A stretch of 64,000 nucleotides of DNA from an uncultured Nitrospinaceae bacterium (GCA_964005815.1 CAXFSR010000060.1:1257-65256); one strand, 5' to 3'. Counted from the first letter of the stretch, positions 11,655 to 35,964 are shown. A program made the numbers and translations. Notes: generated by a model from the sequence alone, not told the origin.

Positions 11655-13160
11655 TTAAAATAAACTTGAAGCGGAAAGTTTTGTGATATCAATAAAACTA
11701 TCTGGGAAAAGACCAAGATAAAGGGTCATAGACAATAGAATGACCAAAGTAAAGATTAATGAGGAAGCACGGGAGAATTCAAAAGGAATGTCTGGGTCCT
11801 TTGCAGGTTCCATAAACATCACCATAATAACTCGTCCATAATAATACATAGAAATCGCACTTGTAAGTATCCCGATAACAGCCAACCAATAGAATTCATT
11901 TTGTATTGCCGCTGCGAAGAGATATAACTTTCCTACAAAACCTGCAGTTGGAGGTATCCCAGCCAATGAAAGAAGAAAAACCACGAAACACATACCGAAC
12001 CAAGGATGGGACTGACCTAATCCACGCCAATCTTCAATCTGATCTCCTCTTTTGCCTTCTTGGCACATCCATATCAGCATTCCAAAAGCACCTAAATTTG
12101 TAAACAAATATATACCTAAATAAAACAGTACTGAACTTACATTAAAATCACTAAAAAGATATTTCCCATTATGAATTGTGAAACATGAAACAAAACCCAT
12201 CAAAATATAACCGGCATGACTCATACTTGAATACGCAAGCATACGTTTTAGATTCTTCTGTGCAATTGCAGCAATATTACCCCAAACCATTGTCGCAGCA
12301 GTTAAAGCCCAAAAGAGAACAGTCCATCTTGTACTCATAGAAGGCAAGGCTATGACAAAAAGTCGGACTATAACTGCCACAGCTGCTGCCTTCACTGCAA
12401 CAGACATAAATGCAGTTACAGATGTTGGAGCGCCTGTATATGCATCTGGTAGCCACATATGAAAAGGAGCTAGCGCCATTTTAAAAGCAAAACCGCCAAC
12501 TAATAATATAACTGACAAAATTAAAACTGGCTGAGATACTACTGCATTTACATTAGAACTAGAAAGAGCCTTAGCGATAGCAGTAAATGATGTTGAACCG
12601 GTGTAGCCGTAGAGTAATGCGATACCATACAACAAAATTCCAGACGCAAAAGCACCCATCAAAAAATATTTAAATCCTGCTTCTCTACTTAATACATCAT
12701 TTCTCATAAATGCAACTAAAACATAAATACTTATACTCATAGTTTCTATACCAAGATATAGAGTCATTAGATCATTAGCTGAAACTAAAACTAGCATCCC
12801 AAAAACGGAAAACAAAAGCATGGCATAAAATTCACCATAATTAATTTTTTCAACTTTCAGATAATCAATCGACATTAAAACTGTAAGAGCAGCACAAACT
12901 AAAATAGTAGATTTTAAGAAAACACTAAAATTATCAACTATATAAAAATCACTAAAGGTAGTTTTTGGCCCAACACCCCACTGAGATAAAGTAAAATAAA
13001 GGACTATAATTATTCCAATTAAACTAACTAAACCAACTAGAGATTTCTTCTCTAATGAAACAAATAGATCAAAAATAAGAACAAATCCTATAAGAATAGC
13101 AAGACTAATCTCAGGCAAGGCCAGTGAAAATAATATGTCTGGTATAACTACTTGCTGCAT
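11655..13160 (-). CDS. nuoN: NADH-quinone oxidoreductase subunit N (copy 1)
   Basis: 501 aa polytopic antiporter-like subunit with NuoN-type motifs. Last gene of the downstream nuo operon. Confidence 0.9.
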   Translation of the reverse strand: MQQVVIPDILFSLALPEISLAILIGFVLIFDLFVSLEKKSLVGLVSLIGIIIVLYFTLSQWGVGPKTTFSDFYIVDNFSVFLKSTILVCAALTVLMSIDYLKVEKINYGEFYAMLLFSVFGMLVLVSANDLMTLYLGIETMSISIYVLVAFMRNDVLSREAGFKYFLMGAFASGILLYGIALLYGYTGSTSFTAIAKALSSSNVNAVVSQPVLILSVILLVGGFAFKMALAPFHMWLPDAYTGAPTSVTAFMSVAVKAAAVAVIVRLFVIALPSMSTRWTVLFWALTAATMVWGNIAAIAQKNLKRMLAYSSMSHAGYILMGFVSCFTIHNGKYLFSDFNVSSVLFYLGIYLFTNLGAFGMLIWMCQEGKRGDQIEDWRGLGQSHPWFGMCFVVFLLSLAGIPPTAGFVGKLYLFAAAIQNEFYWLAVIGILTSAISMYYYGRVIMVMFMEPAKDPDIPFEFSRASSLIFTLVILLSMTLYLGLFPDSFIDITKLSASSLF

Positions 13161-13189
13161 GATATTTAAGACTCCTATGGACTAAAATC

Positions 13190-14749
13190 TTAGTTTTTAG
13201 CAGAAACCTTTGAAATACGTTTTTGGATAATTGCAACGTTTTTACTCGTTTGATTCTGATCCACAATTTTCACAACTCTTTTAAGACTAGCCTCCATTTT
13301 ATTTATAAAAGGTTTAGGATAGAGACCAATCCAAAACATTAAAATAACTAAAGGAGCTAGATAAAGAATCTCTCTTAAATTACAATCTGGGATATTTTCA
13401 TTTTTTGGATTTTCCAATTTCCCAAAAAATACTCTTTGAAATAACCAAAGCATATAAGCAGCACCAAGAACAATTCCAATCACAGCAAATGCCGCGTAAA
13501 TATAACTTTTCTTAAATGCACCAATAAGGATTAAAAACTCACCTACAAATCCATTTAACCCAGGTAGCCCTATACTACTTAACATAGTTATTGCAAAAAT
13601 TACGGTAAAAATTGGCATTTGCTTTGAGAGTCCGCCATATTCGGAAATTTCGCGTGTATGTCTTCTTTCATAAACAACTCCGACAAGTAAAAAGAGTGCG
13701 CCGGTACTAATACCATGATTTATCATTTGTAATTGACCACCTATTAGCCCCTGTTCATTTAACGCAAAAACTCCCAGCATAACAAATCCTAGATGACTGA
13801 CTGATGAGTAAGCTACAAGCTTTTTAATGTCAGTTTGAGCCATCGCGACCAATGCTCCATATATAATTCCGATGATAGACAGAAGTACCATAAAAGGCAC
13901 AAAAAGTTGCGTCGCCTCTGGAAGAAGAGGCAATACAAATCGAACAAAACCATATGTACCCATTTTCAATAGAATTCCAGCAAGAATTACACTACCGGCA
14001 GTCGGTGCCTCTACGTGCGCGTCAGGCAACCATGTATGAAAAGGAAACATTGGAACTTTGATAGCAAAACCAATGAAAAAGGCAAGGAAAATCCATACCT
14101 GTAAACTTAGTGGAATCTTTGGTCCCACAAGATACAATTCGGTTAGACTAAAAGTTAAAGAACCGGTTCCTGACTTCATATTAAAGAAATATAAAGCAAG
14201 GATTCCTAGAAGCATTAAAACACTTCCGAAAAGCGTATAAAGAAAGAATTTTATTGCAGCATAGAGTTTTCTGGTTCCACCCCAAATACCAATCAAGAAA
14301 TACATCGGTACTAATGTAACTTCGAAGAAAACGTAAAACAGAAAGATATCAATTGCTAGAAATGTTCCAAGCATACCTGTTCCTAGCAAAAGCAAACAAA
14401 CATAATATTCTTTTTCACGTTCTTTAATAGCAGTAAAAGAACAAACAATAGAAATTAACATTGTTAACGTTGTTAGAAGAATCAAAAGTACACTAATCCC
14501 ATCTACTCCAAGATAATAACTGACACCAATTGATGGTATCCAGCTGACTTTTTCAACAAATTGAAATCCTGCCTCAGAGTCATTGAAGTTCGTCCATAAA
14601 GGAAGAGATATAAGAAAATCGAGAAATGCAACACCAGTAGCAAACATCTTGATTGTTTTCACTTGCTCTTTTTTTATAAAGAGCATAATAATAATTGCTC
14701 CCAGCAAAGGAAGAAAAATTATCAGCGAAAGAAGTGGAAGATTATTCAT
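13190..14749 (-). CDS. nuoM: NADH-quinone oxidoreductase subunit M (copy 1)
   Basis: 519 aa. WLPDAHVEAPTAGSVILAG motif typical of NuoM. Confidence 0.9.
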   Translation of the reverse strand: MNNLPLLSLIIFLPLLGAIIIMLFIKKEQVKTIKMFATGVAFLDFLISLPLWTNFNDSEAGFQFVEKVSWIPSIGVSYYLGVDGISVLLILLTTLTMLISIVCSFTAIKEREKEYYVCLLLLGTGMLGTFLAIDIFLFYVFFEVTLVPMYFLIGIWGGTRKLYAAIKFFLYTLFGSVLMLLGILALYFFNMKSGTGSLTFSLTELYLVGPKIPLSLQVWIFLAFFIGFAIKVPMFPFHTWLPDAHVEAPTAGSVILAGILLKMGTYGFVRFVLPLLPEATQLFVPFMVLLSIIGIIYGALVAMAQTDIKKLVAYSSVSHLGFVMLGVFALNEQGLIGGQLQMINHGISTGALFLLVGVVYERRHTREISEYGGLSKQMPIFTVIFAITMLSSIGLPGLNGFVGEFLILIGAFKKSYIYAAFAVIGIVLGAAYMLWLFQRVFFGKLENPKNENIPDCNLREILYLAPLVILMFWIGLYPKPFINKMEASLKRVVKIVDQNQTSKNVAIIQKRISKVSAKN

Positions 14750-14773
14750 AATATCTTAGACCCCCAAAACCTA

Positions 14774-16831
14774 CTATTGTAAAAGATAAGCACTTAACAT
14801 TAAGAAAACACCTAAAAGCATTGCAAGCAAATAATTCTGAACCATTCCAGATTGTAAAAATTTAAAAACTTGACTAAAGAAACGAACAAAGTTCGCTACA
14901 CCGTTCACTGCACCATCAACTGTCCTTATATCAAAAAGGGAAGACACTCGACTCGTTAAAACCGTTACAAATGTACTTCCATTTACAGCACCATCAACAA
15001 CTTTAGCATCAAAATTCCACAAAAAACGCATCAATCTATAAATTGGCTCTACAATACATTTTTGATATAACTCGTCTACATAATACTTATTCAGTAAAAT
15101 TTTATATAAACCTGGGAACTTTTGTTGTATTTGATCAGGCATGTTTGATTTTTTCCCATACATACTCCAAGCAATCACAATACCTCCAACAGCTATTATT
15201 ATAGCAAGTATAATTAAGTACATAGCTTCTGGTCCATGATGACCTCCGCTTTCTCCAGAAGCCGCATGAGCGGAAGAAATCAAATTAAAAGAAGAATGAT
15301 GAGTCACATGAGACATTTTAGCGAGAGAAGGAGCTAGAAAATCATGAATCCACCCTTTTTCTGGTGGAAACCCGGGAATAATTCCTCCAAAAATACTCAA
15401 AACTGCAAGTAAAATCAATGGTATTGTCATTGCGGGGGGAGATTCATGAATATGTTCCCTAGCATGAGTGTCTACTCTCATTTCTCCATGAAAAGTCATA
15501 AAAATCAGCCTAAACATATAAAAAGCAGTCATTAATGCTGCTATAGAACCAACTATCCATACAAAAGTATGTCCAGAGAAAAAAGCATTAGCCAAAATTT
15601 CATCTTTACTCCAAAATCCTGCAAAAGGCGGAACGCCTGCTATTGCTATCGCACCGATTAGAAAAGTCCAATATGTTATTGGCATCTTAGATTTAAGACC
15701 ACCCATATATCTCATGTCTTGCTGTTGCTCTTCGGGAGCATGATGTAAAGCATGAATTACACTTCCACTTCCAAGAAACAAAAGACCTTTAAAAAATGCA
15801 TGAGTCATAAGATGGAAAACACCTGCAGTAAATGCCCCAACCCCAAGCGCCATAAACATAAAACCTAATTGACTAACAGTACTATAAGCAAGCACACGTT
15901 TAATATCATTTTGCACGAGACCTATAGATGCTGCAAAAATTGCTGTAAGTGCTCCTACAACAGCAATAACTTCTAAAGCCAAAGCTGCATCAACATATAT
16001 AGGACTGGTTCTCGCAACCATATAAACGCCAGCCGTTACCATTGTAGCCGCATGAATTAGAGCACTAACGGGAGTAGGTCCTTCCATAGCATCAGGCAGC
16101 CAAACATAGAGAGGGATTTGAGCACTTTTTCCCATCGCACCAATAAAAAGCAGAAGTCCAATAATAGAAGCATAAGTAGTTTCAACACCAAGAACATTGA
16201 TATTTACGGCAAATTTCGATGTTGATTGCGACACTTCTTGGTAAGTGAGAGTATCTGCTAACATCCATATCAAAAACATTCCTAGTAAAAATCCAGCGTC
16301 TCCAATTCTGTTTACAATAAAGGCTTTTTTCCCTGCATCAGAAGCAGATTTTTTTTCATACCAAAAACCAATAAGCAAATAACTACATAAACCAACACCT
16401 TCCCATCCAACAAACATTACCAAATAGTTATCGCCAAGTACGAGGAGAAACATAGAAAGCATGAATAAATTGAGATATGTGAAAAATCTAGAGAATCCGG
16501 GATCCCCATGCATATATCCAATTGAATAAAGATGAACCAAAAATCCAACTCCAGAAACAACTAAAAGCATAATTGTACTTAATGGATCTATAAGAAAACT
16601 TAGCGAAACACTAAAACTTCCTGCGTGAATCCATTCCCAGAGATGAACGGTATGTTTTCCACCAGCACCAAAAATCATTTCATTCGCAATGAAAATTACA
16701 ACCAACAGAGACAATCCTGCCATTAAAGTTGCTATATAACCGGATTTCTCCCCTAATCGTTTTCCAAAAATTCCATTAATTAGAACACCTACAACAGGGA
16801 AAAAAGGAATTAACCATGCATTTAAAATCAT
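14774..16831 (-). CDS. nuoL: NADH-quinone oxidoreductase subunit L (copy 1)
   Basis: 685 aa. WLPDAMEGPTPVSALIHAATMVTAG motif and the long C-terminal horizontal helix region. Confidence 0.9.
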   Translation of the reverse strand: MILNAWLIPFFPVVGVLINGIFGKRLGEKSGYIATLMAGLSLLVVIFIANEMIFGAGGKHTVHLWEWIHAGSFSVSLSFLIDPLSTIMLLVVSGVGFLVHLYSIGYMHGDPGFSRFFTYLNLFMLSMFLLVLGDNYLVMFVGWEGVGLCSYLLIGFWYEKKSASDAGKKAFIVNRIGDAGFLLGMFLIWMLADTLTYQEVSQSTSKFAVNINVLGVETTYASIIGLLLFIGAMGKSAQIPLYVWLPDAMEGPTPVSALIHAATMVTAGVYMVARTSPIYVDAALALEVIAVVGALTAIFAASIGLVQNDIKRVLAYSTVSQLGFMFMALGVGAFTAGVFHLMTHAFFKGLLFLGSGSVIHALHHAPEEQQQDMRYMGGLKSKMPITYWTFLIGAIAIAGVPPFAGFWSKDEILANAFFSGHTFVWIVGSIAALMTAFYMFRLIFMTFHGEMRVDTHAREHIHESPPAMTIPLILLAVLSIFGGIIPGFPPEKGWIHDFLAPSLAKMSHVTHHSSFNLISSAHAASGESGGHHGPEAMYLIILAIIIAVGGIVIAWSMYGKKSNMPDQIQQKFPGLYKILLNKYYVDELYQKCIVEPIYRLMRFLWNFDAKVVDGAVNGSTFVTVLTSRVSSLFDIRTVDGAVNGVANFVRFFSQVFKFLQSGMVQNYLLAMLLGVFLMLSAYLLQ

Positions 16832-16841: not shown

Positions 16842-17147
16842 CTACCATTTTAAAAGATTTACTTCATCAACATTCATAACAGTTTTATCACGATTCAACG
16901 AAATCAAAATCGCCAATCCAACAGCAGCTTCACAGGCAGCAACGGCAATAACAAAAATCGCAAAAACTTGACCGGATAGATCCGCCCACTGTCTAGAAAA
17001 ACCAATTAAAGTAACATTTACCGCATTTAACATAAGTTCTATAGATAAGAGAATAATAATAGCGTTTCTTCTCATAAGAACACCTGCTGCACCAATAAGA
17101 AAAAGTACAGCTCCTAGAGTCAAAAAATGAGAAATAGGTATCATCAA
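16842..17147 (-). CDS. nuoK: NADH-quinone oxidoreductase subunit K (copy 1)
   Basis: 101 aa, 3 TM helices. Ends in NLLKW-like sequence typical of NuoK. Confidence 0.9.
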   Translation of the reverse strand: MMIPISHFLTLGAVLFLIGAAGVLMRRNAIIILLSIELMLNAVNVTLIGFSRQWADLSGQVFAIFVIAVAACEAAVGLAILISLNRDKTVMNVDEVNLLKW

Positions 17148-17153
17148 AATCTC

Positions 17154-17663
17154 CTATGAATCTATTCTTTTCTTAGCAAGCACAATTGCACCAATCATGG
17201 CGGCTAACAAAAGAATAGAAACTACTTCGAACGGAAAAACAAATTTCGTATACAAAACGCTTCCCAATGCTTCTACATTTCCAGGGGTTGCTCCTAACTT
17301 CCAAGGCCATACTTTCATTGCGGGGAAAACTCCCTTACCAAGAACAGACCAAATTTCGAAACCCAAAATTAACACAATTAGAATCGCAAAAAATCGTTGT
17401 CTGTGCCATTGACGAATTCGTACTGCAACCTGAACATTCATTAACATAATCGAGAATAGGTACAGAACCATAATACCACCAGAATAAATAAGAACTTGAA
17501 CAGCCGCAAGGAATTCAGCTCCAGCTAAGACAAAAAGTCCTGCCAAGAAGAAGAATGACAAAACTAATAAAAGAGCTGCATGAATTACATTAGACCTTGT
17601 AATCATGAACAAAGATGTAATCACTATACCGGCAGAAAAAAGATAGAAAAATGGCAGTTCCAA
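17154..17663 (-). CDS. nuoJ: NADH-quinone oxidoreductase subunit J (copy 1)
   Basis: 169 aa NuoJ-like membrane subunit. Confidence 0.85.
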   Translation of the reverse strand: MELPFFYLFSAGIVITSLFMITRSNVIHAALLLVLSFFFLAGLFVLAGAEFLAAVQVLIYSGGIMVLYLFSIMLMNVQVAVRIRQWHRQRFFAILIVLILGFEIWSVLGKGVFPAMKVWPWKLGATPGNVEALGSVLYTKFVFPFEVVSILLLAAMIGAIVLAKKRIDS

Positions 17664-17679: not shown

Positions 17680-18651
17680 TTATAAGAAAAGATACTTAAT
17701 CAAACCAGTTAGAAAAATATTAATGAGTACAAGAGGAAACATAAATTTCCAACCAACACGCATCAATTGATCATATCGATATCTAGGCAATGTAGCTCTA
17801 AGCCAAATAAAAACAAAAATCATAGCGGCTAGCTTTAGCACAAACCATACAAAACCTGGTAAAGGAATTCCAGGAATTCCCATCCAACCACCAAAAAACA
17901 ACGTAATTCCAACGGTTGAAACAACCATAATATTTGCATACTCAGCTAGAAAGAAAAATGCGAACTTCATTCCACTGTATTCTGTATGAAAACCAGAAAC
18001 GAGTTCCGTCTCAGCTTCAGGCAAATCAAAAGGGACACGATTAGTTTCCGCTAAAGCAGCAATGAAGAATACTATAAAAGCCAACGGTTGCGAGAATACA
18101 AACCAACCTTCGGACTGTGCTTCAACAATTTTTTGCATATTTAGTGAACCCGCAAGCATCAAAGGACCGATGAGAGCAAAACCGAGAAAAATTTCGTAAC
18201 TCAACATTTGCGCAGCACTTCTCAATGCACCTAGTAGACTATACTTACTGTTTGATGCCCAACCAGCCATAACAACTCCAAAAACACCTAGAGAACTTAT
18301 AGCTAGAATCAAAAATAATCCAATATTTACTTGGGTAATATAGAAATTTTCACTAAAAGGTAAAACTGAATATACTACAAACGCGGGGACTAAAACCATG
18401 ATAGGAGCAAGGACAAAAACAACTTTGTCTGATTTTGCAGGAATTATATCTTCTTTCAAGAAAAGCTTAAGTCCATCGGCAATAGGCTGTAAAAGACCGT
18501 GCCAGCCTACTCGCATTGGACCCAATCGCATTTGTATGTGAGCAATAATTTTTCTCTCCAGATAGGTCAAATAAGCAACCACTAGAGAAACAACTAAAAG
18601 TACTACTGCAATTTTAATAAACGCTATTAATGCCTCTGTTGCAATATCCAA
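17680..18651 (-). CDS. nuoH: NADH-quinone oxidoreductase subunit H (copy 1)
   Basis: 323 aa. [12 protein letters not shown] and [15 protein letters not shown] motifs. NuoJ follows directly, with no nuoI between them. Confidence 0.9.
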
Positions 18652-18672: not shown

Positions 18673-19815
18673 TTATCTATCACATTCCCCAAGTACGATA
18701 TCTATGCTTCCAATAACGGCAACAACATCTGCAAGTAGACCTCCAACACACAATTTTTTTAGAGCAGCTAAATTTATAAATGACGGGGGTCTAATACGCA
18801 CACGATATGGTGTTTCTGTACCATCGCTAACTATATAGAATCCGAATTCTCCTTTAGGGTTTTCAATACTATGATATATTTCACCCTCTGGAGGCTTAAT
18901 TGTTCTTGGTGTTTTACAGCTCACAGGTCCATCAGGTAATTGCTCTAAACACTGCTGTATGATTTTCACACTTTGCCTTAATTCTTCAATCCTAACGATA
19001 TACCTGTCATAAATATCTCCATTTTCGCCAGTAGGAACTACAAAATCTAAGTATGGATAGGCCGCATATGGTTTAGCCCTTCTCAAATCATAATTTACTC
19101 CACTTGCTCTCAAGAGAGGACCAGACAAACCAAAATCAACTGCATCTTCACCTGAAATAACTCCCACTCCACGAGTACGTTGAAGCCAAATACGATTATT
19201 AGTCAAAAGTGTTTCATAATCTTGAATTCGACTGGGGAAAATATCGATAAACTCTTGTGCTAATGTCAAAAACTTTGCTGGAACATCTTGCTCCAATCCG
19301 CCTAAACGGAATGCATTCACAGTTAAACGACCACCAAACGCTGTTTCAAATAAATCAAGTACCATCTCCCTTTCTCTAAAGCACCATAGAAAAACTGTCA
19401 TTGCTCCAATATCAAGAGCATGAGTAGCTAACCATAACAAATGACTAGCAATACGAGAAAATTCACCAACCATAGAACGTATATAGTTGGCTCGCATAGG
19501 AATTTCCCAATCGAAAAATTTTTCAACTGCAGTTACCCATGCCAAATTATTAGAAGGAGCAGCTATATAATCCAAGCGGTCGGTATAAGGTATAAACATG
19601 GAATAGGTTATATTTTCACCTATTTTTTCGGTACCTCTATGCAGGTATCCAATATCACAATCAAGATCTGTCACTGTTTCACCATCTAGATGAAGAATCA
19701 CACGAAGTACACCATGTGTACTAGGATGCTGGGGTCCCATATTTACTACAAGTTCCTCAGCTCCAGTAACAGTCTTTGTTTGAATTTCTGAATTTGTTTC
19801 TTCTATTTCATACAA
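18673..19815 (-). CDS. nuoD: NADH-quinone oxidoreductase subunit D (copy 1)
   Basis: 380 aa. MGPQHPSTHGVLR motif at the N-terminus. Confidence 0.9.
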   Translation of the reverse strand: MYEIEETNSEIQTKTVTGAEELVVNMGPQHPSTHGVLRVILHLDGETVTDLDCDIGYLHRGTEKIGENITYSMFIPYTDRLDYIAAPSNNLAWVTAVEKFFDWEIPMRANYIRSMVGEFSRIASHLLWLATHALDIGAMTVFLWCFREREMVLDLFETAFGGRLTVNAFRLGGLEQDVPAKFLTLAQEFIDIFPSRIQDYETLLTNNRIWLQRTRGVGVISGEDAVDFGLSGPLLRASGVNYDLRRAKPYAAYPYLDFVVPTGENGDIYDRYIVRIEELRQSVKIIQQCLEQLPDGPVSCKTPRTIKPPEGEIYHSIENPKGEFGFYIVSDGTETPYRVRIRPPSFINLAALKKLCVGGLLADVVAVIGSIDIVLGECDR

Positions 19816-19834: not shown

Positions 19835-20428
19835 TTACTCTCCTATTTCCTTTCGTTGAGGCTTTTCATATACTCTCTCGCCTTTTCCTTCTATAGGGTA
19901 GCTTTTAAGCATTGGATGGCTCCCCCAATCATCAGGCAATAAAATTCTTCTCAAGTCAGGATGACCAGAAAAATCAATTCCAAAAAGATCAAAAACTTCC
20001 CGTTCCATCCAATTGGCACTAGACCAAAGATTGGATAATGTAGGAATGGATTGCTCTTCTTGTAATTTCACTTTTAAACGTACACGTCGATTTCTTTCAA
20101 TGCTATATAGTTGGTATATTAAATGAAGGGGTAGATCGTCATCTGGATAATGCGTAGCTGTCAAATCAACAAGCATAGTGAACTTAAAGACTTCATCATC
20201 CCTAAGTAAAAGCGCAACTTCTTCTATGGAATCCGGTTTTATAGTAATACTAAGCTCATCCTCAAAATCACTAAATGCTTCAGCATCAAATGTAGACCCT
20301 GAAAATTTAGCCTCTAGAAAATCAAGGATATCCTTACCAACGTCTTCTTTCGAATCTTCCTCTGGGTTTTTTTCTGAGGTCTCTTCCTCTACCTCGGAAT
20401 TCTCACCTTGAACTGACTCGTCTGCCAT
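19835..20428 (-). CDS. nuoC: NADH-quinone oxidoreductase subunit C (copy 1)
   Basis: 197 aa. NuoC core (NLWSSANWMEREVFDLFGIDFSGHPDLRRILLPDDW) preceded by an acidic N-terminal extension of about 60 aa. Confidence 0.85.
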   Translation of the reverse strand: MADESVQGENSEVEEETSEKNPEEDSKEDVGKDILDFLEAKFSGSTFDAEAFSDFEDELSITIKPDSIEEVALLLRDDEVFKFTMLVDLTATHYPDDDLPLHLIYQLYSIERNRRVRLKVKLQEEQSIPTLSNLWSSANWMEREVFDLFGIDFSGHPDLRRILLPDDWGSHPMLKSYPIEGKGERVYEKPQRKEIGE

Positions 20429-21335: not shown

Positions 21336-21427
21336 AAAAATAAAAAAATCGTTTGTAAAAAAGTTCAGAATTAAAATCTACAAAAATTTTTATACCATGC
21401 TATTGATTCTAAACCAAGTCCAAGCTA

Positions 21428-28756: not shown

Positions 28757-31300
28757 CTATAAATTTTCTTTTTTTTCTTCTAAGAGCAAAGAAAACTCTC
28801 CATTATTTAACAAACTATCATTGTATATTTTCAAAAATCCTTCTGGAGCGAAAACTAGACCAGAAGGAATAGATGGATCAATTTCGACCGGCAATTTTAA
28901 AATTTTCTCTCCAACTTTAAATTCGACTTCATCCCCATTCGAAATTCCAAGTATTTGTCCATCCGATTCACACATTCTTATACACGCATCTGGCATATCC
29001 CAAAGATGAAATGACGATGAAACATAAACACCAGAAAGAGGCAAATTAGGAGTTAAGATTAATTTGATATCTTGTTCGTCCATCTGTTGCGGATTAGATA
29101 TTTCTGGAACTACAAACTGCCCTTCTTTTTCTTGCGATAAACAAATTCCATACTGTTTTGAACCTGTATAAACAAACTCATAATCATCTAAAGATTTAGA
29201 AATATCAATTTGTATTTTCTCTATAGAATTAGTTTTCATTGGAATTTCCATAGCCTTTGCAATTTCGCTAAATACTTTCCAAGCTTCTTTCCCAAATAAA
29301 CCATTAACAGGTTTAATAGCTCTTCTATTCCTTAAAACTCTTCTCTCTATATTTGTATAAGAACCATTTTCTTCATAAGAGGTTAACGATGGCAGAACTA
29401 CATCTGCAAAAGGGACCGTAGCATTTACATGCGTAGCGTGAACAACGACGAAACAGGAAGATTCCATAGCCTGCCGAACTAATTTTCCATTAGGATGTTC
29501 GGAAACAGGATCACAATCCATCAAATATAAGGAAGAAATTTTCCCAGCTAAAATAGAATCAAAAACTTCTTCACTTCTTTTAAATTCGACGTTTTCTTTA
29601 TGTATACCTTTTGCAGAAGAAGAAATCATCATATCAAATGCGCCCTGAAGATTTGGAGGCACACTTGCAAAAAAGAAATTACAGTCAAGAATTTTAGCGA
29701 GATTCAATATCTCTGAATTTAGAGAGAGACTTTGGATAAAAGGTCCAATGACGAAGGTAAGATTATCTTTATTTGTTATTAATCTAGTCGTAATTTCCTC
29801 TAAGAGCGACATCTCCATTTCAGTTTCATCCGTATTTTCATCAGAAATCCTTTTCAGAAATTCATCTAGCCCATCAAATCCTTTTGGATTATTTCCATTG
29901 CTAAAATTAGACACTCCATCTGGAAAGAGTTTTCTAGAGACAATCTTTTGAATTGCTTTAATGAAATTAATCTCTTGACCTATTGAAGGAATAAAATGAG
30001 ACATTCTACTATTTAGACGCAAATCGATTTTTCTAGGATTAATACTATCTATAAAAGCGCCTTTTGAATGGGCTTTTCTTATCTGAAGAGCTAAAATTGG
30101 ATTTTCTAGAAAAGGATCAGAACCGAATAAAACAATTTGACTCGAATTTGACAAATCCGATAATGTAGCAAAACCACCGGTGTGACCGAACACAGAAGTT
30201 TGTGCAACCGTTTGAGAAAAATCACGTGGATGTATTCTACAATCTATTTGTTCGCTTTCTAAAACAGTTCGAAAGAATTTTTGGAACTGGTATGCAGCTT
30301 CATTACTTGAATAAGAACCACCCAAACCTGCAAACGAGTTCCCACCATTTATTTGTTTTAAAGAAATATACTTATCTGCTATATATTGAACTGCTTCACC
30401 CCAATTAACCTCTTTCAAAATACCGTCTACTTTAATCATTGGTTTGCTAATTCTGTTTTCAGCATGGACTCCACTCCAACCATACCGTGCAACATCACAT
30501 ATCCAGGTATCATTGACTTCTGGATTTTCAGAAGCTGTTACTCTTTTCAAAATACCCTCTTGCGACCAAACGCTTTGCTTACAACCAATACTACACAGAG
30601 TACACGAAGTATCGATATGTTCCATCTCCCATACTCTTGAAGTAAAACGATATTTGTTGTCAGTGAGAGCACCTACTGGACAAATATCAATTACATTTCC
30701 TGAAACTATACTAGAAAGAGGGAGATCCTCATAAATTCCTACTTCCGTTTTATCTCCTCTAAAAGCCCAACCAAATTCTTCACCACCATCAATTTCGGAA
30801 GTAAATCTTATACAGCGTGTACAATGAACACAACGATTCATTTCAGGTTTAATAAAGGGACTAATTTCTTTCTTAGGAAAGATTCTTCTGAGTTCTTGAG
30901 TACGACTTATTGCATTGGCATAAGACATTGTTTGGTCTTGCAACGGACACTCTCCACCCTGATCACATACAGGACAGTCCAAAGGATGATTTTTTAATAG
31001 AAATTCGAAAACACCCTTTTGAGCTTCATCTACCTTCGGTGTTTCAGAACTTACAACCATTCCTTCAGAAGGAAACGTTGCGCAGGAAGGCTGTAACTTG
31101 GGAATTGGTTTTCCATTTCCCGCATCTGTAATTTCTACTAAACATGCACGACACTGACCAACCACGGAAAGATTTTTGTGATAACAAAAATGAGGAATAT
31201 GTATACCCGCATCTAGGGCAGCTTGAATAATAGGCTCACCGTGTTTTGCCTTTAATTCTTTTCCATTAAAAATAAAATTTATTTTTGATTCCTGTGACAA
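28757..31300 (-). CDS. nuoG: NADH-quinone oxidoreductase subunit G
   Basis: 847 aa. N-terminal 2Fe-2S ferredoxin domain (CYHKNLSVVGQCRACLVEI), a 4Fe-4S/His-ligated cluster region and a molybdopterin-like domain. Confidence 0.9.
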   Translation of the reverse strand: MSQESKINFIFNGKELKAKHGEPIIQAALDAGIHIPHFCYHKNLSVVGQCRACLVEITDAGNGKPIPKLQPSCATFPSEGMVVSSETPKVDEAQKGVFEFLLKNHPLDCPVCDQGGECPLQDQTMSYANAISRTQELRRIFPKKEISPFIKPEMNRCVHCTRCIRFTSEIDGGEEFGWAFRGDKTEVGIYEDLPLSSIVSGNVIDICPVGALTDNKYRFTSRVWEMEHIDTSCTLCSIGCKQSVWSQEGILKRVTASENPEVNDTWICDVARYGWSGVHAENRISKPMIKVDGILKEVNWGEAVQYIADKYISLKQINGGNSFAGLGGSYSSNEAAYQFQKFFRTVLESEQIDCRIHPRDFSQTVAQTSVFGHTGGFATLSDLSNSSQIVLFGSDPFLENPILALQIRKAHSKGAFIDSINPRKIDLRLNSRMSHFIPSIGQEINFIKAIQKIVSRKLFPDGVSNFSNGNNPKGFDGLDEFLKRISDENTDETEMEMSLLEEITTRLITNKDNLTFVIGPFIQSLSLNSEILNLAKILDCNFFFASVPPNLQGAFDMMISSSAKGIHKENVEFKRSEEVFDSILAGKISSLYLMDCDPVSEHPNGKLVRQAMESSCFVVVHATHVNATVPFADVVLPSLTSYEENGSYTNIERRVLRNRRAIKPVNGLFGKEAWKVFSEIAKAMEIPMKTNSIEKIQIDISKSLDDYEFVYTGSKQYGICLSQEKEGQFVVPEISNPQQMDEQDIKLILTPNLPLSGVYVSSSFHLWDMPDACIRMCESDGQILGISNGDEVEFKVGEKILKLPVEIDPSIPSGLVFAPEGFLKIYNDSLLNNGEFSLLLEEKKENL

Positions 31301-31325: not shown

Positions 31326-32627
31326 TTACACCGAATATGGACTGTTAAGAGGACAACATTTCTTGCTGATATGCTCCTCAAATTCATTCTGGAATTTATT
31401 TAAAATTGCTCCAAACATCATCGCACATGCATCCGATAGAACACATATAGTGTTTCCTCGCATGTTTGGGTCAATTGACTTTAAAGTCGAAATATCTTCC
31501 TTGACCCCTTTTCCACTTTCTATGCGAGATATTATTTCGGAAACCCATCCTGTTCCTTCTCGACAAACTGAACACTGGCCGCAAGATTCATGCTCGAAGA
31601 AACGAGAAAGTCTAGCGGCAACTTCTACCATACAGGTTGATTCGTCCATTACAACAACACCGCCACTTCCACCCATACTTCCTGCTGCAGCCAAAGAATC
31701 AAAATCCATCTTTATTTTATCTTCGTAAACTTCCTTTGAGGTTAAAACTGGAGCACTTGCACCACCTGGAATAACTGCTTTTAATTTTTTGCCATCAATT
31801 ATTCCGCCACAATGCTCTTCAATGATCTCCTCACAAGTAAGCCCGAGAGGCAATTCATAGAGTCCTGGTTTTTTTACATGTCCAGAAACACAGTACATAC
31901 GAGTTCCAGAATTTTTCTCATTTATCCCTATCTGGGAAAACCAGTCCGCACCTTTATTAATAATATGAGGAAGATTACTAAGCGTTTCTACATTATTAAT
32001 TACCGTTGGACGACCATACAAACCTTCAACTGCAGGAAAAGGGGGTTTTAAACGTGGATGACCTCGCTTTCCTTCTAATGATTCTAGTAAACCAGTTTCC
32101 TCGCCACAAATATATGCACCAGCTCCCGAATGGACATATATGTCACAATCAAAATTACTACCAAAAACATTTTTACCTACATAACCCCTTTCATATGCCT
32201 CTCGGAGTGCCTTTTCTACAACCAAAATAGGAGCAGAATATTCCCCACGAATATAAATGTAGGCCTTCTCTATTCCAACCGCATAACAAGTAATTAAAAT
32301 TCCTTCAATTAATTGATGCGGATCTCGAAGCATCAATTCTCGATCTTTGAAAGTTCCTGGTTCACCTTCATCAGCATTAACAGCCAAATATTTTGGCCCA
32401 TCAACTTTAGGCACAAAACTCCATTTCAATCCACATGGGAAACCTGCTCCACCTCTTCCTCGAAGACCAGATGTTTTTACAATTTCAATAACGTCTTCGC
32501 TTGAGATATTTTTGTCTAAAATAGATCGGATTGCCTGATAACCCGAGGTTTTTTCATAAGCATCTATTTTTTGACATGCAGGATCTTCAAAACGCGATGT
32601 TACAATTTTTTCTAAAGTAAAATTCAT
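31326..32627 (-). CDS. nuoF: NADH-quinone oxidoreductase subunit F
   Basis: 433 aa. GRGGAGFP FMN/NADH site and a C-terminal ESCGQCSVCREG 4Fe-4S motif. Confidence 0.9.
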   Translation of the reverse strand: MNFTLEKIVTSRFEDPACQKIDAYEKTSGYQAIRSILDKNISSEDVIEIVKTSGLRGRGGAGFPCGLKWSFVPKVDGPKYLAVNADEGEPGTFKDRELMLRDPHQLIEGILITCYAVGIEKAYIYIRGEYSAPILVVEKALREAYERGYVGKNVFGSNFDCDIYVHSGAGAYICGEETGLLESLEGKRGHPRLKPPFPAVEGLYGRPTVINNVETLSNLPHIINKGADWFSQIGINEKNSGTRMYCVSGHVKKPGLYELPLGLTCEEIIEEHCGGIIDGKKLKAVIPGGASAPVLTSKEVYEDKIKMDFDSLAAAGSMGGSGGVVVMDESTCMVEVAARLSRFFEHESCGQCSVCREGTGWVSEIISRIESGKGVKEDISTLKSIDPNMRGNTICVLSDACAMMFGAILNKFQNEFEEHISKKCCPLNSPYSV

Positions 32628-32646: not shown

Positions 32647-33261
32647 TCATTCTAAAATAGTCTTTGTTTTATTTTCACTTGAAGCGAATGAACTCTCTTT
32701 TGTCAAATTTAAAGCAACTTCATCTGCTCCTATCGGAGCAACTACTTCACCTTTCTCCAGAGAAACTATAATTGGTTCTAAAATTTCTTCTGTTAAATTT
32801 TCAAAATAATCGGTATTGATTATTAAACAAGGGGCACCTCCACATGCACCAAGACATTCGACTCTTTCTATAGAAAATTTTTTATCCGAACGAGTTTTCC
32901 CAGAAGCACAATCCAAGCGTTTTTCTAGAAAGTTAATTAATTTTCCTGCCCCCATTAATGCACAAGATAAATTATCACAAACTTGAAAATGGAACTCGCC
33001 CAAATCGTTCGTTTTTAACATTGTATAAAAACTAACTACGCTCCAAATTTCCATTGCTGAGGTTTCAAAATATCCCGCTAAATACTGCATAGCTTTACTT
33101 GAAATTTTTCCCTCCTGTTTTTGAATAAGTATCAATGCAGGAATGAGCGCAGAACGCTTGACAGGATATTTTTTAACAATCCTTTCAAGTTCTTCTTTGT
33201 TTTCGTCTGAAAATTCAAAATCTTCTTCATCTGAAGAATTTGGAAAGTGTGCAAAAACCAA
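32647..33261 (-). CDS. nuoE: NADH-quinone oxidoreductase subunit E
   Basis: 204 aa. Thioredoxin-like 2Fe-2S subunit (CDNLSC ... CLGACGGAP) with an acidic N-terminal tail. Confidence 0.85.
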   Translation of the reverse strand: MVFAHFPNSSDEEDFEFSDENKEELERIVKKYPVKRSALIPALILIQKQEGKISSKAMQYLAGYFETSAMEIWSVVSFYTMLKTNDLGEFHFQVCDNLSCALMGAGKLINFLEKRLDCASGKTRSDKKFSIERVECLGACGGAPCLIINTDYFENLTEEILEPIIVSLEKGEVVAPIGADEVALNLTKESSFASSENKTKTILE

Positions 33262-33280: not shown

Positions 33281-34504
33281 TTAACGATCAATTTCACCTA
33301 AAACAATATCAATACTTCCTATTGCAGCAACCACATCACCAATTAAACATTCTGAAGTGATCTCAGAAAGTGAATGTAAATTTGCAAAACTTGGGGCTCT
33401 CACTTTTACTTTATATGGTTTTGTGCCCCCATCACTTATAATAAAATAACCAAGCTCCCCGCGTGGAGACTCAATAACTTGATAGACCTCACCAGCCGGC
33501 ACGTCATATCCTTCAGTAAAAATCTTAAAATGATGAATTAAAGCCTCCATATCATGAGACAGTTGTTCCTTAGGAGCAGGAACAACTTTAGGAGCATTAG
33601 ACATTAAAGGTCCTTCTGGCATCCCCTCTAGAACTTGTGTAGCAATTTTCTGAGATTCACGCATTTCCGAAATACGAACTGAATATCGATCAAAAACATC
33701 ACCATTTTTTCCAATCGGAATATTAAAATCGAATTCCTGATAACAAGAATATGGCTCTTTCTTTCTTATATCGTAAGAAACTCCACAAGCCCTAAGTATA
33801 GGACCTGTAATTCCAAGAGCAAATGCTTTCTCTTTCGTGATTGGACAAGTTCCTTCTGTACGCCTTCTAAAAATAGGGTTGTTAGTAAGCAATTCTTCGT
33901 AATCATTCACTCTACTAATAAAGTCCTTCAAAAAAACTTCACAATCTGAGTAAAATTCGGGATAAGGTTCTCTTGCGACCCCACCAACCCTAAAATAACT
34001 TGTCATCATACGAACACCTGATACTTTTTCAAAAATCTTTAAGAGTTTTTCTCTTTCTCGAAAACAGTAAAGGAAAACCGTCATCGCACCTAAATCTAGA
34101 GCATGTGTCCCCAACCATACAAGATGACTATTTAAACGGGTAAGTTCTACTAGTAAGACTCGCAAATAGGAACATCTTCGAGTAATTTCAATACCAAGAA
34201 GTTTCTCTACAGCAAGTACATATCCTAAGTTATTTGACATGGGTGCGAGATAATCCATTCTATCTGTCATAGGTAAAGCTTTATTAAAAGTCTTAACCTC
34301 CATATTTTTTTCTATCCCTGTATGAAGGTATCCAATTACAGGCTTACAAGATTTAACAGTTTCCCCCTCTAACTCTAAAGACACTCTTAAAACACCGTGA
34401 GTAGAGGGATGTTGTGGACCCATGTTAAGGGTCATCCTCTCCGTGCCAATGGGTCCTAGAGTCTCTTCGTTATAATCTTGTTCTTCTTCTAATTCTATAG
34501 ACAT
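33281..34504 (-). CDS. nuoD: NADH-quinone oxidoreductase subunit D (copy 2)
   Basis: 407 aa. MGPQHPSTHGVLR motif. Confidence 0.9.
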   Translation of the reverse strand: MSIELEEEQDYNEETLGPIGTERMTLNMGPQHPSTHGVLRVSLELEGETVKSCKPVIGYLHTGIEKNMEVKTFNKALPMTDRMDYLAPMSNNLGYVLAVEKLLGIEITRRCSYLRVLLVELTRLNSHLVWLGTHALDLGAMTVFLYCFREREKLLKIFEKVSGVRMMTSYFRVGGVAREPYPEFYSDCEVFLKDFISRVNDYEELLTNNPIFRRRTEGTCPITKEKAFALGITGPILRACGVSYDIRKKEPYSCYQEFDFNIPIGKNGDVFDRYSVRISEMRESQKIATQVLEGMPEGPLMSNAPKVVPAPKEQLSHDMEALIHHFKIFTEGYDVPAGEVYQVIESPRGELGYFIISDGGTKPYKVKVRAPSFANLHSLSEITSECLIGDVVAAIGSIDIVLGEIDR

Positions 34505-34530: not shown

Positions 34531-35091
34531 TTATTCTTTAGCAGAAGGCTTACCATCAGGAGTAGGGCGAAAACTAAATTCTACTGTTTCAGACGATACA
34601 TCAAAATCTTTACGATGCGGGAAACCCTCAAATCCTTCAGGAGTAAAAATTCTTTCTAAATTTGGATGCCCTTCAAAATGAATACCAACTAAATCAAAAG
34701 CTTCTGACTCGTGATAATTTGCACCAGTCCAAACAGAACAAACACTAGGCAAACTAGGCATTAAATCATTTTCACAGAACACTTCTAAACGAATACGCTT
34801 ACTTCTTTCAAAATCGAGGAGTGAGTACACAACTTTAAATCTATATTCCAGATTCAGTTCAAGACAATCCACTCCCGCTAGAAAACTGAGTTGCTTGAAA
34901 TTTCTTTCTTTTAATAAAAAATCTGAAACACTGAGAAGTTCGGAAGGAGAAATCTGAACCGTAATTTGATCTAAATATTCAAAAAAAAGAAGGTTTGAAC
35001 TATGAAAATTTTTTTTTAAAGCGATAACATCTTCGTCTTGATCTAAGATGTTATTTCCAGCAATACCTTCATCTTCAATTTGACTCTGCAT
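34531..35091 (-). CDS. nuoC: NADH-quinone oxidoreductase subunit C (copy 2)
   Basis: 186 aa NuoC core. Confidence 0.85.
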   Translation of the reverse strand: MQSQIEDEGIAGNNILDQDEDVIALKKNFHSSNLLFFEYLDQITVQISPSELLSVSDFLLKERNFKQLSFLAGVDCLELNLEYRFKVVYSLLDFERSKRIRLEVFCENDLMPSLPSVCSVWTGANYHESEAFDLVGIHFEGHPNLERIFTPEGFEGFPHRKDFDVSSETVEFSFRPTPDGKPSAKE

Positions 35092-35140
35092 CTTTTACCC
35101 TTTGTATCTTTCACCTAAAAAATGGAAATCAACTGAGGAT

Positions 35141-35638
35141 TTAATTCTTAACAAGACCTTCTGCCTCAATTTTCTTTTGAAGTTTCAAAATCCCGTCTAT
35201 GAGTGTCTCCGGCCTAGGAGGACAACCAGGCACATAAATATCAACAGGCACTACCTCATCCACTCCCTGAACAAGGGCATAATTATTAAAAACACCTCCT
35301 GTTGAAGCACAAGCCCCCATTGAAATGACCCATTTTGGTTCTGGCATTTGATCATAAATCTGTCTTAAAACTGGCGCCATCTTTTTTGACACTCTGCCCG
35401 CAACAATCATTAAGTCAGCTTGTCTAGGAGAAGCACGAAAAACCTCGGCTCCAAATCGAGAAATGTCATATTTCGAAGCAGAAGTAGACATCATTTCTAT
35501 AGCACAACACGCGAGACCAAATAGTGCAGGCCACAGACTGTTTTTTCTAGCCCATTTTATTGCATCAGATATCCTACCTAGAACAACACTACCTTCCAAT
35601 TTTTCTTCTAATCCCAATCTAAAGCCCCTCTTTTCCAC
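35141..35638 (-). CDS. nuoB: NADH-quinone oxidoreductase subunit B (copy 2)
   Basis: 165 aa. [15 protein letters not shown] and PGCPP N2-cluster motifs. Confidence 0.9.
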
Positions 35639-35964
35639 TCATAAATTAAGCTTGCAAAAAGTAAAAAAACAAAAGGCATCACTGCCACAAAACCAAAAAC
35701 CCCAAGACTTTTCAAATTAACAGCCCATGGATATAAAAAAATTATTTCAACATCAAAGACAATAAAGAGAATTGCTACCAAAAAGAATTGTATTGAAAAA
35801 CGTCCTCGTGCACTCGTTTCTGGTATAATTCCGCATTCATAAGCTACATTCTTTTTGTTTGAAGGAGTTCTCTTCCCAAACAAAAAAGTTATACAAATAT
35901 TTAAAAAAGCAAAACAAGTTGCTAATCCAATCATCATGAAAATAGGGAGAAAATCTTGAGACAA
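35608..35964 (-). CDS. nuoA: NADH-quinone oxidoreductase subunit A (copy 2)
   Basis: 118 aa. YECG motif. First gene of the array. Confidence 0.85.

What the first reader, a model, noticed from the sequence alone, without database searches (positions are those of the whole stretch)
11655..35964. Two respiratory complex I operons in direct tandem (14-subunit followed by a 10-subunit copy)
The minus strand carries nuoA-B-C-D-E-F-G-H-I-J-K-L-M-N. After a 92-nt gap it carries a second set, nuoA-B-C-D-H-J-K-L-M-N, as 24 consecutive co-oriented genes. This could be one transcript. The copies are divergent paralogues rather than recent duplicates. For example, NuoB reads GNCATCGG in one copy and GACASTGG in the other, and NuoC of copy 1 carries a 60-aa acidic extension. 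Having a full and a reduced complex I genetically coupled in one array is unusual.
Basis: seen in the sequence. Interest (0 to 1): 0.6.

Follow-up and report, generated by a model that had tools for sequence, protein, structure and literature searches.

The report
Tandem full and reduced complex I operons
An uncultured marine bacterium (UBA8248/Nitrospinota-related) carries a complete 14-gene respiratory complex I operon followed directly by a separately promoted 10-gene set that lacks every iron-sulfur subunit except NuoB, so the second enzyme probably has to borrow at least NuoI from the first.

Summary
The minus strand carries nuoABCDEFGHIJKLMN (35964-21428), a 92-107 nt spacer, then nuoABCDHJKLMN (21335-11655).

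It is not a mis-assembly. The same head-to-tail array occurs in about 35 genomes of one lineage, including closed long-read chromosomes. One member (ODZ_NOB7a) is classified as GTDB phylum UBA8248, formerly Nitrospinota.

- **Age:** the copies are ancient paralogues, 30-55% identical.
- **Function:** both are under strong purifying selection (dN/dS 0.007-0.21). Both keep all proton-channel, cluster N2 and quinone-site residues.
- **Transcription:** the spacer holds a promoter-like motif, TTGGWT-N14/15-TGnTATAR, found in at least 30 of the 34 tandem junctions. No terminator was found. Operon 2 therefore has its own promoter, and read-through is not excluded.
- **Affinity:** copy 2 has the short NuoD form, and its nearest relatives all lack nuoEFG. 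Those relatives also variously lack nuoB, nuoI or both.

Best reading: a second, N-module-less complex I-type enzyme that has lost its own nuoI and recruits NuoI from operon 1. This is inferred, not shown. The electron donor is unresolved.

This is a new variant of known kinds (complex I isozymes, partial nuo operons). Interest is moderate.

The parts
36024..36053 (-). Putative promoter P1 of operon 1: TTGACA (36053-36048), 18-nt spacer, TAATAT (36029-36024)
   Evidence: Read directly from the sequence. Consensus match only. Conservation was not tested because the related loci do not reach this far.
35608..35964 (-). nuoA1
   Evidence: NCBIfam NuoA models, E 1.8e-35. D79/E81 equivalents conserved.
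35141..35638 (-). nuoB1 (cluster N2 ligands CC..C..C present; motif GACASTGG)
   Evidence: NF005012, 255.6 bits, above cut-off. Alignment.
34531..35091 (-). nuoC1
   Evidence: TIGR01961, E 5e-34.
33281..34504 (-). nuoD1, long form with the 25-aa segment [26 protein letters not shown]
   Evidence: TIGR01962, 551.8 bits, above cut-off. Indel shown.
32647..33261 (-). nuoE1
   Evidence: TIGR01958, 153.8 bits, above cut-off.
31326..32627 (-). nuoF1
   Evidence: TIGR01959, 604.2 bits, above cut-off.
28757..31300 (-). nuoG1
   Evidence: TIGR01973, 518.2 bits, above cut-off.
27761..28744 (-). nuoH1
   Evidence: NuoH equivalog models, E 2.3e-132. Loop residues conserved.
27257..27736 (-). nuoI1, the only nuoI in the window; two CxxCxxCxxxC motifs
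   Evidence: TIGR01971, 140.9 bits, above cut-off. Motifs. tblastn finds no second copy.
26726..27244 (-). nuoJ1
   Evidence: NuoJ models, E 1.3e-34.
26406..26708 (-). nuoK1
   Evidence: PF00420, E 7e-29. E36/E72 conserved.
24476..26404 (-). nuoL1
   Evidence: PF00361, PF00662 and PF06455. Channel residues conserved.
22912..24462 (-). nuoM1
   Evidence: PF00361. Channel residues conserved.
21428..22912 (-). nuoN1
   Evidence: PF00361. Channel residues conserved.
21336..21427 (-). Spacer between the two operons (92 nt, or 107 nt if nuoA2 starts at GTG 21320)
   Evidence: A spacer is retained in all related tandem loci: about 85-92 nt in the window's clade, and about 40-190 nt by the longest-ORF nuoA2 start in the others.
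21389..21417 (-). Putative promoter P2 of operon 2: -35 TTGGTT (21417-21412), 17-nt spacer, extended -10 TGgTATAAA (21397-21389). It begins 11 nt after the nuoN1 stop.
   Evidence: The pattern TTGGWT-N14/15-TGnTATAR occurs once in the window, against 0.06 expected. It occurs exactly once in each of 30 loci, always at the nuoN1/nuoA2 junction. Alignments.
20925..21335 (-). nuoA2 (start TTG 21335 or, more likely, GTG 21320)
   Evidence: NuoA models, E 4.7e-36. Public gene call of 131 aa.
20458..20955 (-). nuoB2 (N2 ligands present; motif GNCATCGG)
   Evidence: NF005012, 252.8 bits, above cut-off. PDB alignments. dN/dS 0.007-0.008.
19835..20428 (-). nuoC2, with an acidic N-terminal region
   Evidence: TIGR01961, 138 bits, above cut-off; domain starts at residue 60. 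22 D/E in the first 60 aa.
18673..19815 (-). nuoD2, short form (380 aa, lacks the 25-aa segment). Quinone-site His (HPSTHG), Tyr (PYTDR) and Asp (HALD) are present.
17680..18651 (-). nuoH2
   Evidence: NF004741, 390 bits, above cut-off..
17154..17663 (-). nuoJ2, 16 nt after nuoH2; no nuoI between them
16842..17147 (-). nuoK2
   Evidence: NF004320, 116.9 bits, above cut-off.
14774..16831 (-). nuoL2
   Evidence: TIGR01974, 772.9 bits. Channel residues conserved.
13190..14749 (-). nuoM2
   Evidence: TIGR01972, 649.6 bits. Channel residues conserved.
11655..13160 (-). nuoN2
   Evidence: TIGR01770, 450.5 bits. Channel residues conserved.

Best explanation
The array encodes two different complex I-type enzymes.

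Operon 1 is a canonical 14-subunit NADH:quinone oxidoreductase.

Operon 2 is driven by its own conserved promoter in the spacer and may also receive read-through from operon 1. It encodes an alternative quinone module (NuoB, C, D) and a complete proton-pumping membrane arm (NuoA, H, J, K, L, M, N). This set is of a separate, N-module-less type with a short NuoD. It has lost its own nuoI.

Every characterised enzyme of this superfamily needs the NuoI ferredoxin-like subunit next to NuoB. The closest relatives of copy 2 that still carry a nuoI have a bona fide one. The second enzyme therefore most likely completes itself with NuoI made from operon 1, about 6 kb upstream.

The result would be two isoenzymes that share iron-sulfur hardware but differ in quinone site and pump.

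- **Shown:** gene content, conservation of the array, purifying selection, intact catalytic and channel residues, and the promoter motif.
- **Inferred:** subunit sharing.
- **Open:** whether NuoEFG is also shared (a second NADH-dependent isoform), or the enzyme uses another donor or acceptor such as ferredoxin. The second case could include reverse electron flow in these nxr-carrying organisms.
For: - **Gene content.** 14 + 10 genes. nuoE, F, G and I are single copy in the window. No copy-2 protein carries a 4Fe-4S ferredoxin motif that could replace NuoI.
- **Conserved array.** In every related locus where the flank reaches nuoI1 (about 30), the array has exactly one nuoI-like gene, in operon 1. 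The 10-gene set is never seen without nuoN1 immediately upstream when the flank is long enough.
- **Both sets functional.** dN/dS is 0.007-0.21, and lower for copy 2. The N2 cysteines, the NuoD His/Tyr/Asp and all tested NuoA/H/J/K/L/M/N channel residues are intact in both.
- **Relatives of copy 2.**
  - L036 and the NC10 loci have a bona fide nuoI between H and J. Phycisphaerae have it moved upstream of nuoA.
  - Thirteen Vicinamibacteria loci have nuoACDHJKLMN with neither nuoB nor nuoI within 10 kb. NC10 loci lack nuoB.
  - An enzyme without NuoB cannot be redox active, so those clusters must draw iron-sulfur subunits from other loci.
- **Precedent.** Spero et al. [quoted passage not shown] 2018, BBA Bioenergetics). 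The best solved-structure match of NuoD2 is the A. aeolicus NuoC/D2 chain 7q5y_B.
- **Separate promoter.**
Against: - **No direct evidence of sharing.** There are no protein-level, transcript or whole-genome data.
- **nuoI can lie outside the operon.** L062 has nuoABCDEFGHJKLM without nuoI. N. gracilis has stand-alone nuoB2 and nuoF2 (PMC3578206).
- **Stoichiometry.** One nuoI would have to serve two enzymes.
- **Sharing of NuoEFG looks doubtful.**
  - NuoC is an assembly determinant in E. coli (PMC7050243), and it is the most divergent pair here at 30%.
  - NuoD2 has the short form, which in this data set occurs only in clusters without nuoEFG.
- **Weak deep phylogeny.** Support is 54-68% for NuoD and lower for H, L and M.
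Confidence: 0.5

Rival explanations
1. The second enzyme is an ordinary 11-subunit N-module-less complex. Its nuoI, of its own clade, is encoded at a third locus elsewhere in the genome. Nothing is shared with operon 1, and the adjacency is historical or regulatory.
For: - nuo genes are often scattered. N. gracilis has stand-alone nuoB2 and nuoF2.
- L062 has a nuoEFG-containing operon without nuoI.
- ANGP1 loci have a separate B-D-I-C cluster.
- Phycisphaerae have relocated nuoI.
- Kop et al. describe a UBA9942 MAG with 'all genes twice except nuoEFG'.
Against: - No second nuoI lies within the 64-kb window or within 10 kb of the array in any related locus.
- It does not explain why the two operons stay strictly adjacent while orthologues diverged to about 55% identity.
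Confidence: 0.25
2. The 10 subunits form a complete enzyme without any NuoI. An unknown donor, such as a soluble ferredoxin or another redox protein, delivers electrons directly to cluster N2 in NuoB2.
For: - The 10-gene composition is strictly conserved and highly constrained. NuoB2 has dN/dS 0.007.
- NuoB2 carries an extra cysteine (GNCATCGG) and NuoC2 an acidic N-terminal region, either of which could form a new docking surface.
Against: - No precedent. From my own knowledge of the family, all characterised members (complex I, NDH-1, Fpo, Mbh, Ech, FHL) keep the NuoI homologue.
- Sister clusters keep a bona fide NuoI.
- Vicinamibacteria clusters lack even NuoB, which shows that missing genes in this clade are supplied in trans.
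Confidence: 0.1
3. The array is a single 24-gene transcription unit, or an assembly artefact joining two loci, or the second set is a decaying duplicate.
For: - All 24 genes are co-oriented.
- No terminator-like hairpin lies in the spacer, so read-through is possible.
Against: - The junction is present in 14 contigs and about 35 genomes, including closed chromosomes.
- A conserved promoter motif sits in the spacer.
- Paralogues are only 30-55% identical.
- Copy 2 is under stronger purifying selection than copy 1.
Confidence: 0.03

Closest known systems
Canonical bacterial 14-subunit complex I (NuoA-N; e.g. E. coli, Thermus thermophilus)
   Same: Operon 1 has all 14 genes in the canonical order. 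The B, D, E, F, G and I models score above their curated cut-offs, and all channel residues are present.
   Different: Nothing unusual was seen in operon 1 itself, apart from being followed directly by a second nuo set.
N-module-less 11-subunit complex I-like enzymes ('NUO11': Bacillus cereus-type, Chlorobi, cyanobacterial NDH-1, archaeal Fpo)
   Same: Operon 2 lacks nuoEFG. NuoD2 has the short form and aligns in one stretch to PRK12322 (366 aa) and FpoD. Its nearest relatives are clusters without nuoEFG.
   Different: - Operon 2 also lacks nuoI, which all described 11-subunit enzymes keep.
- It sits directly behind a full 14-gene operon.
- NuoB2 is most similar to mitochondrial-type PSST rather than to NdhK or Fpo.
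Complex I isoenzymes that share subunits: Aquifex aeolicus NQOR1/NQOR2 (recalled from memory, Peng et al. 2018); Syntrophobacter fumaroxidans (Spero et al. 2015, PMC4453560)
   Same: Two sets of quinone-module and membrane subunits are paired with single-copy electron-input subunits. The best PDB match of NuoD2 is A. aeolicus NuoC/D2.
   Different: - Here NuoB is duplicated and NuoI is single. Aquifex is the reverse.
- Sharing is only inferred here.
- The two sets lie head to tail with an internal promoter.
Nitrospina gracilis NUO-1 / NUO-2 (Lücker et al. 2013, PMC3578206; Kop et al. 2024, PMC10839748)
   Same: A related phylum with two complex I gene sets. The second was proposed to drive reverse electron flow from quinol to ferredoxin.
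   Different: - N. gracilis NUO-2 is scattered (nuoACHIJKLMN, nuoEGD, nuoB2, nuoF2) and has modified NuoF and NuoG.
- Its NUO-1 is nuoA-M with nuoN apart.
- A Nitrospinaceae NUO-1-type locus (L054) is only about 50% identical to either window copy.
nuoACDHJKLMN operons of Acidobacteria (noted in passing by Hausmann et al., bioRxiv 10.1101/197269)
   Same: These are the closest relatives of copy 2 outside the lineage, about 60% NuoD identity. They also lack nuoI and nuoEFG.
   Different: They additionally lack nuoB, and they are not adjacent to a 14-gene operon.

Membership tests
14-subunit NADH:quinone oxidoreductase (operon 1) | All 14 core genes nuoA-N | tested here: met
14-subunit NADH:quinone oxidoreductase (operon 1) | NADH/FMN module NuoE, F, G scoring above curated family cut-offs | tested here: met
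   TIGR01958 153.8 vs 142.4; TIGR01959 604.2 vs 558.65; TIGR01973 518.2 vs 470.05.
14-subunit NADH:quinone oxidoreductase (operon 1) | N2 ligands in NuoB, two 4Fe-4S motifs in NuoI, and conserved Lys/Glu channel residues in L/M/N/K/J/A/H | tested here: met
11-subunit N-module-less complex I-like enzyme (operon 2) | Absence of nuoEFG from the cluster | tested here: met
11-subunit N-module-less complex I-like enzyme (operon 2) | Presence of all 11 genes A, B, C, D, H, I, J, K, L, M, N | tested here: not met
   nuoI is absent. The nuoH2-nuoJ2 gap is 16 nt. The same holds in all related tandem loci.
11-subunit N-module-less complex I-like enzyme (operon 2) | Short NuoD, and grouping with clusters that lack nuoEFG | tested here: met
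   The 25-aa indel separates the two groups cleanly. Tree support is only moderate, 54-68% for NuoD.
11-subunit N-module-less complex I-like enzyme (operon 2) | Electron donor other than NADH (ferredoxin, F420H2 or similar) | not testable with these tools
   Needs biochemistry.
Subunit-sharing complex I isoenzymes (Aquifex type) | Single-copy electron-input subunits alongside duplicated quinone-module and membrane subunits in one genome | tested here: inconclusive
   Met within the 64-kb window and the 21-kb loci: E, F, G and I are single and the rest duplicated. The whole genome was not scanned.
Subunit-sharing complex I isoenzymes (Aquifex type) | The same polypeptide is physically present in both purified complexes | not testable with these tools
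   Needs proteomics or complexome profiling.
2M-type complex I (extra NuoM) | A second NuoM-like antiporter subunit in the cluster | tested here: not met
   Each set has one NuoL, one NuoM and one NuoN.
Nitrospina gracilis-type NUO-2 | Scattered clusters nuoACHIJKLMN plus nuoEGD, with modified NuoF and NuoG | tested here: not met
   The gene order here is ABCDHJKLMN, with no E, G or F of its own.

The most novel reading that the evidence does not exclude
Complex I can be built as interchangeable modules. In several phyla a second nuo cluster has repeatedly shed the genes for cofactor-bearing subunits: nuoI in the UBA8248 lineage, nuoB in NC10, and both in Vicinamibacteria. These clusters would encode only an alternative quinone site and proton pump, which is mounted on iron-sulfur subunits made from another operon. 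In UBA8248 this dependence would be what keeps the two operons locked head to tail, with an internal promoter setting the ratio of the two isoenzymes.
Probability: 0.4. Interest if true: 0.65.

Novelty: new variant of a known kind. Interest (0 to 1): 0.5.

Why it matters
Members of this lineage (GTDB UBA8248, formerly placed in Nitrospinota) occur in oxygen-deficient ocean water and in sponges. Some carry nxr genes, and the role of their respiratory chain in forward versus reverse electron flow is unknown.

A conserved pair of complex I-type enzymes, one of which cannot be complete on its own, gives a concrete and testable case of subunit sharing between respiratory isoenzymes. Together with the clusters in Vicinamibacteria and NC10 that lack nuoB and/or nuoI, it warns against a common annotation habit. 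Pipelines that score 'complex I present' or 'partial' cluster by cluster will misread such genomes.

Tried and rejected
- **Mis-assembly.** Rejected. The junction is in 14 contigs and about 35 genomes, including closed chromosomes.
- **Recent duplication or pseudogenes.** Rejected. Identity is 30-55% and dN/dS is low.
- **Hidden nuoI.** None found in the H2-J2 gap, as a fused domain, or elsewhere in the window.
- **Terminator or conserved RNA hairpin in the spacer.** None found.
  - The consensus scan found no site in the spacer.
  - The fold of the spacer has z = 0.57.
  - RNAalifold predicts no pairs across 19 sequences.
  - Some lineages have inverted repeats flanking the -10, but these are not shared by all.
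- **2M-type and N. gracilis NUO-2-type membership.** Not met.
- **Deep phylogeny.** Neighbour-joining bootstraps from the sequences in hand resolve only the monophyly of copy 2 (100%). Its wider placement is not resolved.
- **Literature.**
  - The Chadwick et al. 2018 paper on unusual complex I homologues is not held.
  - A search for the Aquifex NQOR1/NQOR2 paper found nothing, so that precedent rests on memory.
  - No description of the 14+10 tandem array was found.
- **Not attempted.**
  - The large protein-database searches. They could not tie a stand-alone nuoI to the same genome.
  - Multimer structure prediction. The tool folds single chains only.

Full report
**Observation.** The minus strand of the window carries 24 consecutive co-oriented ORFs between 35964 and 11655. 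NCBIfam and Pfam scans assign them as follows:
- nuoA-B-C-D-E-F-G-H-I-J-K-L-M-N, from 35964 to 21428;
- nuoA-B-C-D-H-J-K-L-M-N, from 21335 to 11655.

The NuoB, D, E, F, G and I models of set 1 score above their curated cut-offs. So do the NuoB, C, D, H, K, L, M and N models of set 2.

The spacer between the nuoN1 stop and nuoA2 is 92 nt for a TTG start at 21335. It is 107 nt for the GTG at 21320, which has a GGAAGA Shine-Dalgarno-like sequence and matches the public gene call. Every other intergenic gap in the array is 49 nt or less.

nuoH2 and nuoJ2 are 16 nt apart. tblastn finds no further nuoE, F, G or I in the whole window. No protein of set 2 contains a CxxCxxCxxxC motif. The second set therefore lacks nuoE, F, G and I. 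These are all the cofactor-bearing subunits except NuoB.

The one exception is the acidic NuoC extension, which belongs to the 10-gene copy.

**Not an artefact, and not a one-off.** An identical NuoD2 is encoded on 14 public contigs, 11 of them with the same neighbours.

A scan of one genome per species returned 80 loci. I annotated them with the window's 24 proteins. About 35 loci show the same head-to-tail order (...G1 H1 I1 J1 K1 L1 M1 N1 | A2 B2 C2 D2 H2 J2 K2 L2 M2 N2). They include closed long-read chromosomes such as OY843592.1 and OZ244906.1. Each locus that reaches nuoI1 has exactly one nuoI-like gene, in operon 1.

The records are labelled Nitrospinaceae, Nitrospinota, Tectomicrobia or simply 'bacterium'. 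One of them, ODZ_NOB7a, is classified by its authors as GTDB phylum UBA8248, formerly placed in Nitrospinota (PMC11373643).

A Nitrospinaceae locus with the NUO-1 layout described for Nitrospina gracilis (L054, nuoA-M) is only about 50% identical to either window copy. The array is therefore not the published Nitrospina arrangement.

**The two sets are old, distinct and both in use.**
- Paralogue identities range from 30% (NuoC) to 55% (NuoB).
- Copy-2 orthologues form a clade with 100% bootstrap support for NuoD, H, L and M. The split therefore predates the lineage.
- Against close relatives, all 18 comparable genes have dN/dS of 0.007-0.21. Copy 2 is more constrained than copy 1, for example L2 0.040 against L1 0.086, with B2 at 0.008. 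Across the lineage, copy 2 is also better conserved in sequence.
- I aligned both copies to E. coli, with the E. coli residue at each position checked in the script. Both keep the canonical channel residues of NuoL, M, N, K, J, A and H.
- Both keep the four cysteine ligands of cluster N2 in NuoB. Both keep the quinone-site His, Tyr and Asp in NuoD.
- Each set has one L, one M and one N, so neither is a 2M-type enzyme.

**The spacer.** A spacer is retained in all related tandem loci. It begins, 10-22 nt after the nuoN1 stop, with a motif that is conserved from this 34%-GC genome to visibly GC-rich relatives: TTGGWT, then 14-15 nt, then TGnTATAR. This has the spacing and form of a sigma-70 promoter with an extended -10.

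The exact pattern occurs once in the 64-kb window, at 21417-21390, against 0.06 expected. It occurs exactly once in each of 30 loci, always at this junction. The pattern was derived from these sequences, so its presence at the junction is partly circular. Its absence everywhere else is the informative part.

No terminator-like site or conserved hairpin was found. I therefore conclude that operon 2 has its own promoter and that read-through from operon 1 remains possible.

Operon 1 is preceded by a near-consensus TTGACA-N18-TAATAT.

**What copy 2 is related to.** NuoD2 lacks a 25-residue segment that is present in NuoD1, in E. coli and in all nuoEFG-containing relatives. It aligns in one stretch to the 366-aa PRK12322 model and to FpoD.

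All homologues with this short form come from clusters without nuoEFG. These are an 11-gene-type cluster (L036), Vicinamibacteria, NC10/Methylomirabilota, Phycisphaerae and ANGP1. Tree support for this wider group is only moderate: 54-68% for NuoD and lower for H, L and M.

Within this group, the genes for iron-sulfur subunits are repeatedly missing.

| Lineage | Cluster |
|---|---|
| L036 | nuoI between H and J |
| NC10 | nuoI present, nuoB absent |
| Phycisphaerae | nuoI moved upstream of nuoA |
| Vicinamibacteria (13 loci) | nuoACDHJKLMN; no nuoB or nuoI within 10 kb |

The Vicinamibacteria layout was mentioned in passing for peatland Acidobacteria. A complex without NuoB has no cluster N2, so these clusters must be completed from other loci.

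**Mechanism.** The best-supported reading is as follows. Operon 2 encodes an alternative quinone module and membrane arm of an N-module-less type, and it takes NuoI from operon 1. That dependence would also explain why the two operons have stayed adjacent.

There is precedent for such sharing. Spero et al. noted that Syntrophobacter fumaroxidans has one nuoEFG and two copies of the rest. From memory, the two Aquifex aeolicus isoforms share NuoB, E, F and G. The best solved-structure match of NuoD2 is the Aquifex NuoC/D2 chain.

Whether NuoEFG is also shared is open. Two points argue against it:
- the short NuoD form, which here is restricted to clusters without nuoEFG;
- the 30% identity of the NuoC pair. 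NuoC is an assembly determinant in E. coli.

A ferredoxin-linked role, possibly in reverse, as proposed for other nitrite oxidisers, is therefore at least as likely as a second NADH-dependent isoform.

**Rivals.**
- A third-locus nuoI remains a serious alternative. nuoI can lie outside a nuo operon, as in L062, which has nuoABCDEFGHJKLM. Stand-alone nuoB2 and nuoF2 exist in N. gracilis.
- A truly NuoI-less enzyme has no precedent and is less likely.

**Novelty.** Multiple complex I isozymes and partial operons are known. The idea of shared modules has been raised before. What I did not find described is:
- the conserved 14+10 head-to-tail array with an internal promoter;
- the nuoI-less composition of the second set;
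- the wider pattern of iron-sulfur gene loss in the sister clusters.

I rate it a new variant of known kinds, of moderate interest.

Noticed in passing
L037-L049 (e.g. L038:8841-18100): Thirteen Vicinamibacteria loci carry a 9-gene nuoACDHJKLMN cluster with neither nuoB nor nuoI (nor nuoEFG) within 10 kb. The A-to-C gap is 17 nt in L038. This means every cofactor-bearing subunit is absent from the cluster.
   Followed up: partly
L053, L055, L059-L061 (e.g. L061:8911-18745 and 20083-21116): NC10/Methylomirabilota clusters are nuoACDHIJKLMN, without nuoB. In L061 a second nuo cluster (nuoA then nuoE) starts about 1.3 kb downstream. This is another tandem arrangement, with the reduced set first.
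   Followed up: no
L075:6748-19544, L076, L079, L081: Phycisphaerae clusters have a bona fide NuoI-family gene directly upstream of nuoA, and none between nuoH and nuoJ (order I-A-B-C-D-H-J-K-L-M-N).
   Followed up: partly
L062:783-12516: A MAG (KW1-S15_112) has nuoA-B-CD(fused)-E-F-G-H-J-K-L-M. nuoI is missing from between H and J (22-nt gap) even though nuoEFG are present.
   Followed up: no
L071:9105-12235 (also L065, L072, L078): 'ANGP1' and related MAGs have a small stand-alone cluster in the order nuoB-D-I-C (quinone module only), with short-form NuoD.
   Followed up: no
L007:2776-2830, L032:8292-8330, L025 junction (aligned): In several relatives the -10 element of the spacer promoter is flanked by an inverted repeat whose sequence differs between lineages (CCGCCATGA..TCATGGCGG; GGCCAGTG..CACTGGCC; CCGGGC..GCCCGG). 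It could be an operator or a hairpin. It is absent from the window's own clade and is not recovered as a consensus structure.
   Followed up: partly
window 20458-20955 (NuoB2) and 18673-19815 (NuoD2): NuoB2 has an extra cysteine next to the third N2 ligand (GNCATCGG). NuoD2 ends in GECDR where the usual ending is GEIDR. The significance is unknown.
   Followed up: no
window 28757-31300 (nuoG1): The C-terminal half of NuoG1 evolves much faster than all other genes in the array. Its dN/dS is 0.18-0.21 against 0.12 or less for the rest, and it is only about 40% identical in more distant relatives.
   Followed up: no
window 30-4061, 6150-6989, 7841-8530: Upstream neighbourhood: selA and selB (selenocysteine incorporation), a chlorite dismutase-family gene, and an SCO1/SenC copper chaperone.
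   Followed up: no
window 9773-9848 (-) and 8532-9854 (-): A tRNA-Phe (GAA) overlaps the 5' end of the longest ORF of the MFS transporter gene. The transporter's true start must lie further downstream.
   Followed up: no
window 39718-42891 (-): A nitrile hydratase alpha-family protein (250 aa) lies next to two amidohydrolase-2 genes. They are unrelated to the nuo array.
   Followed up: no
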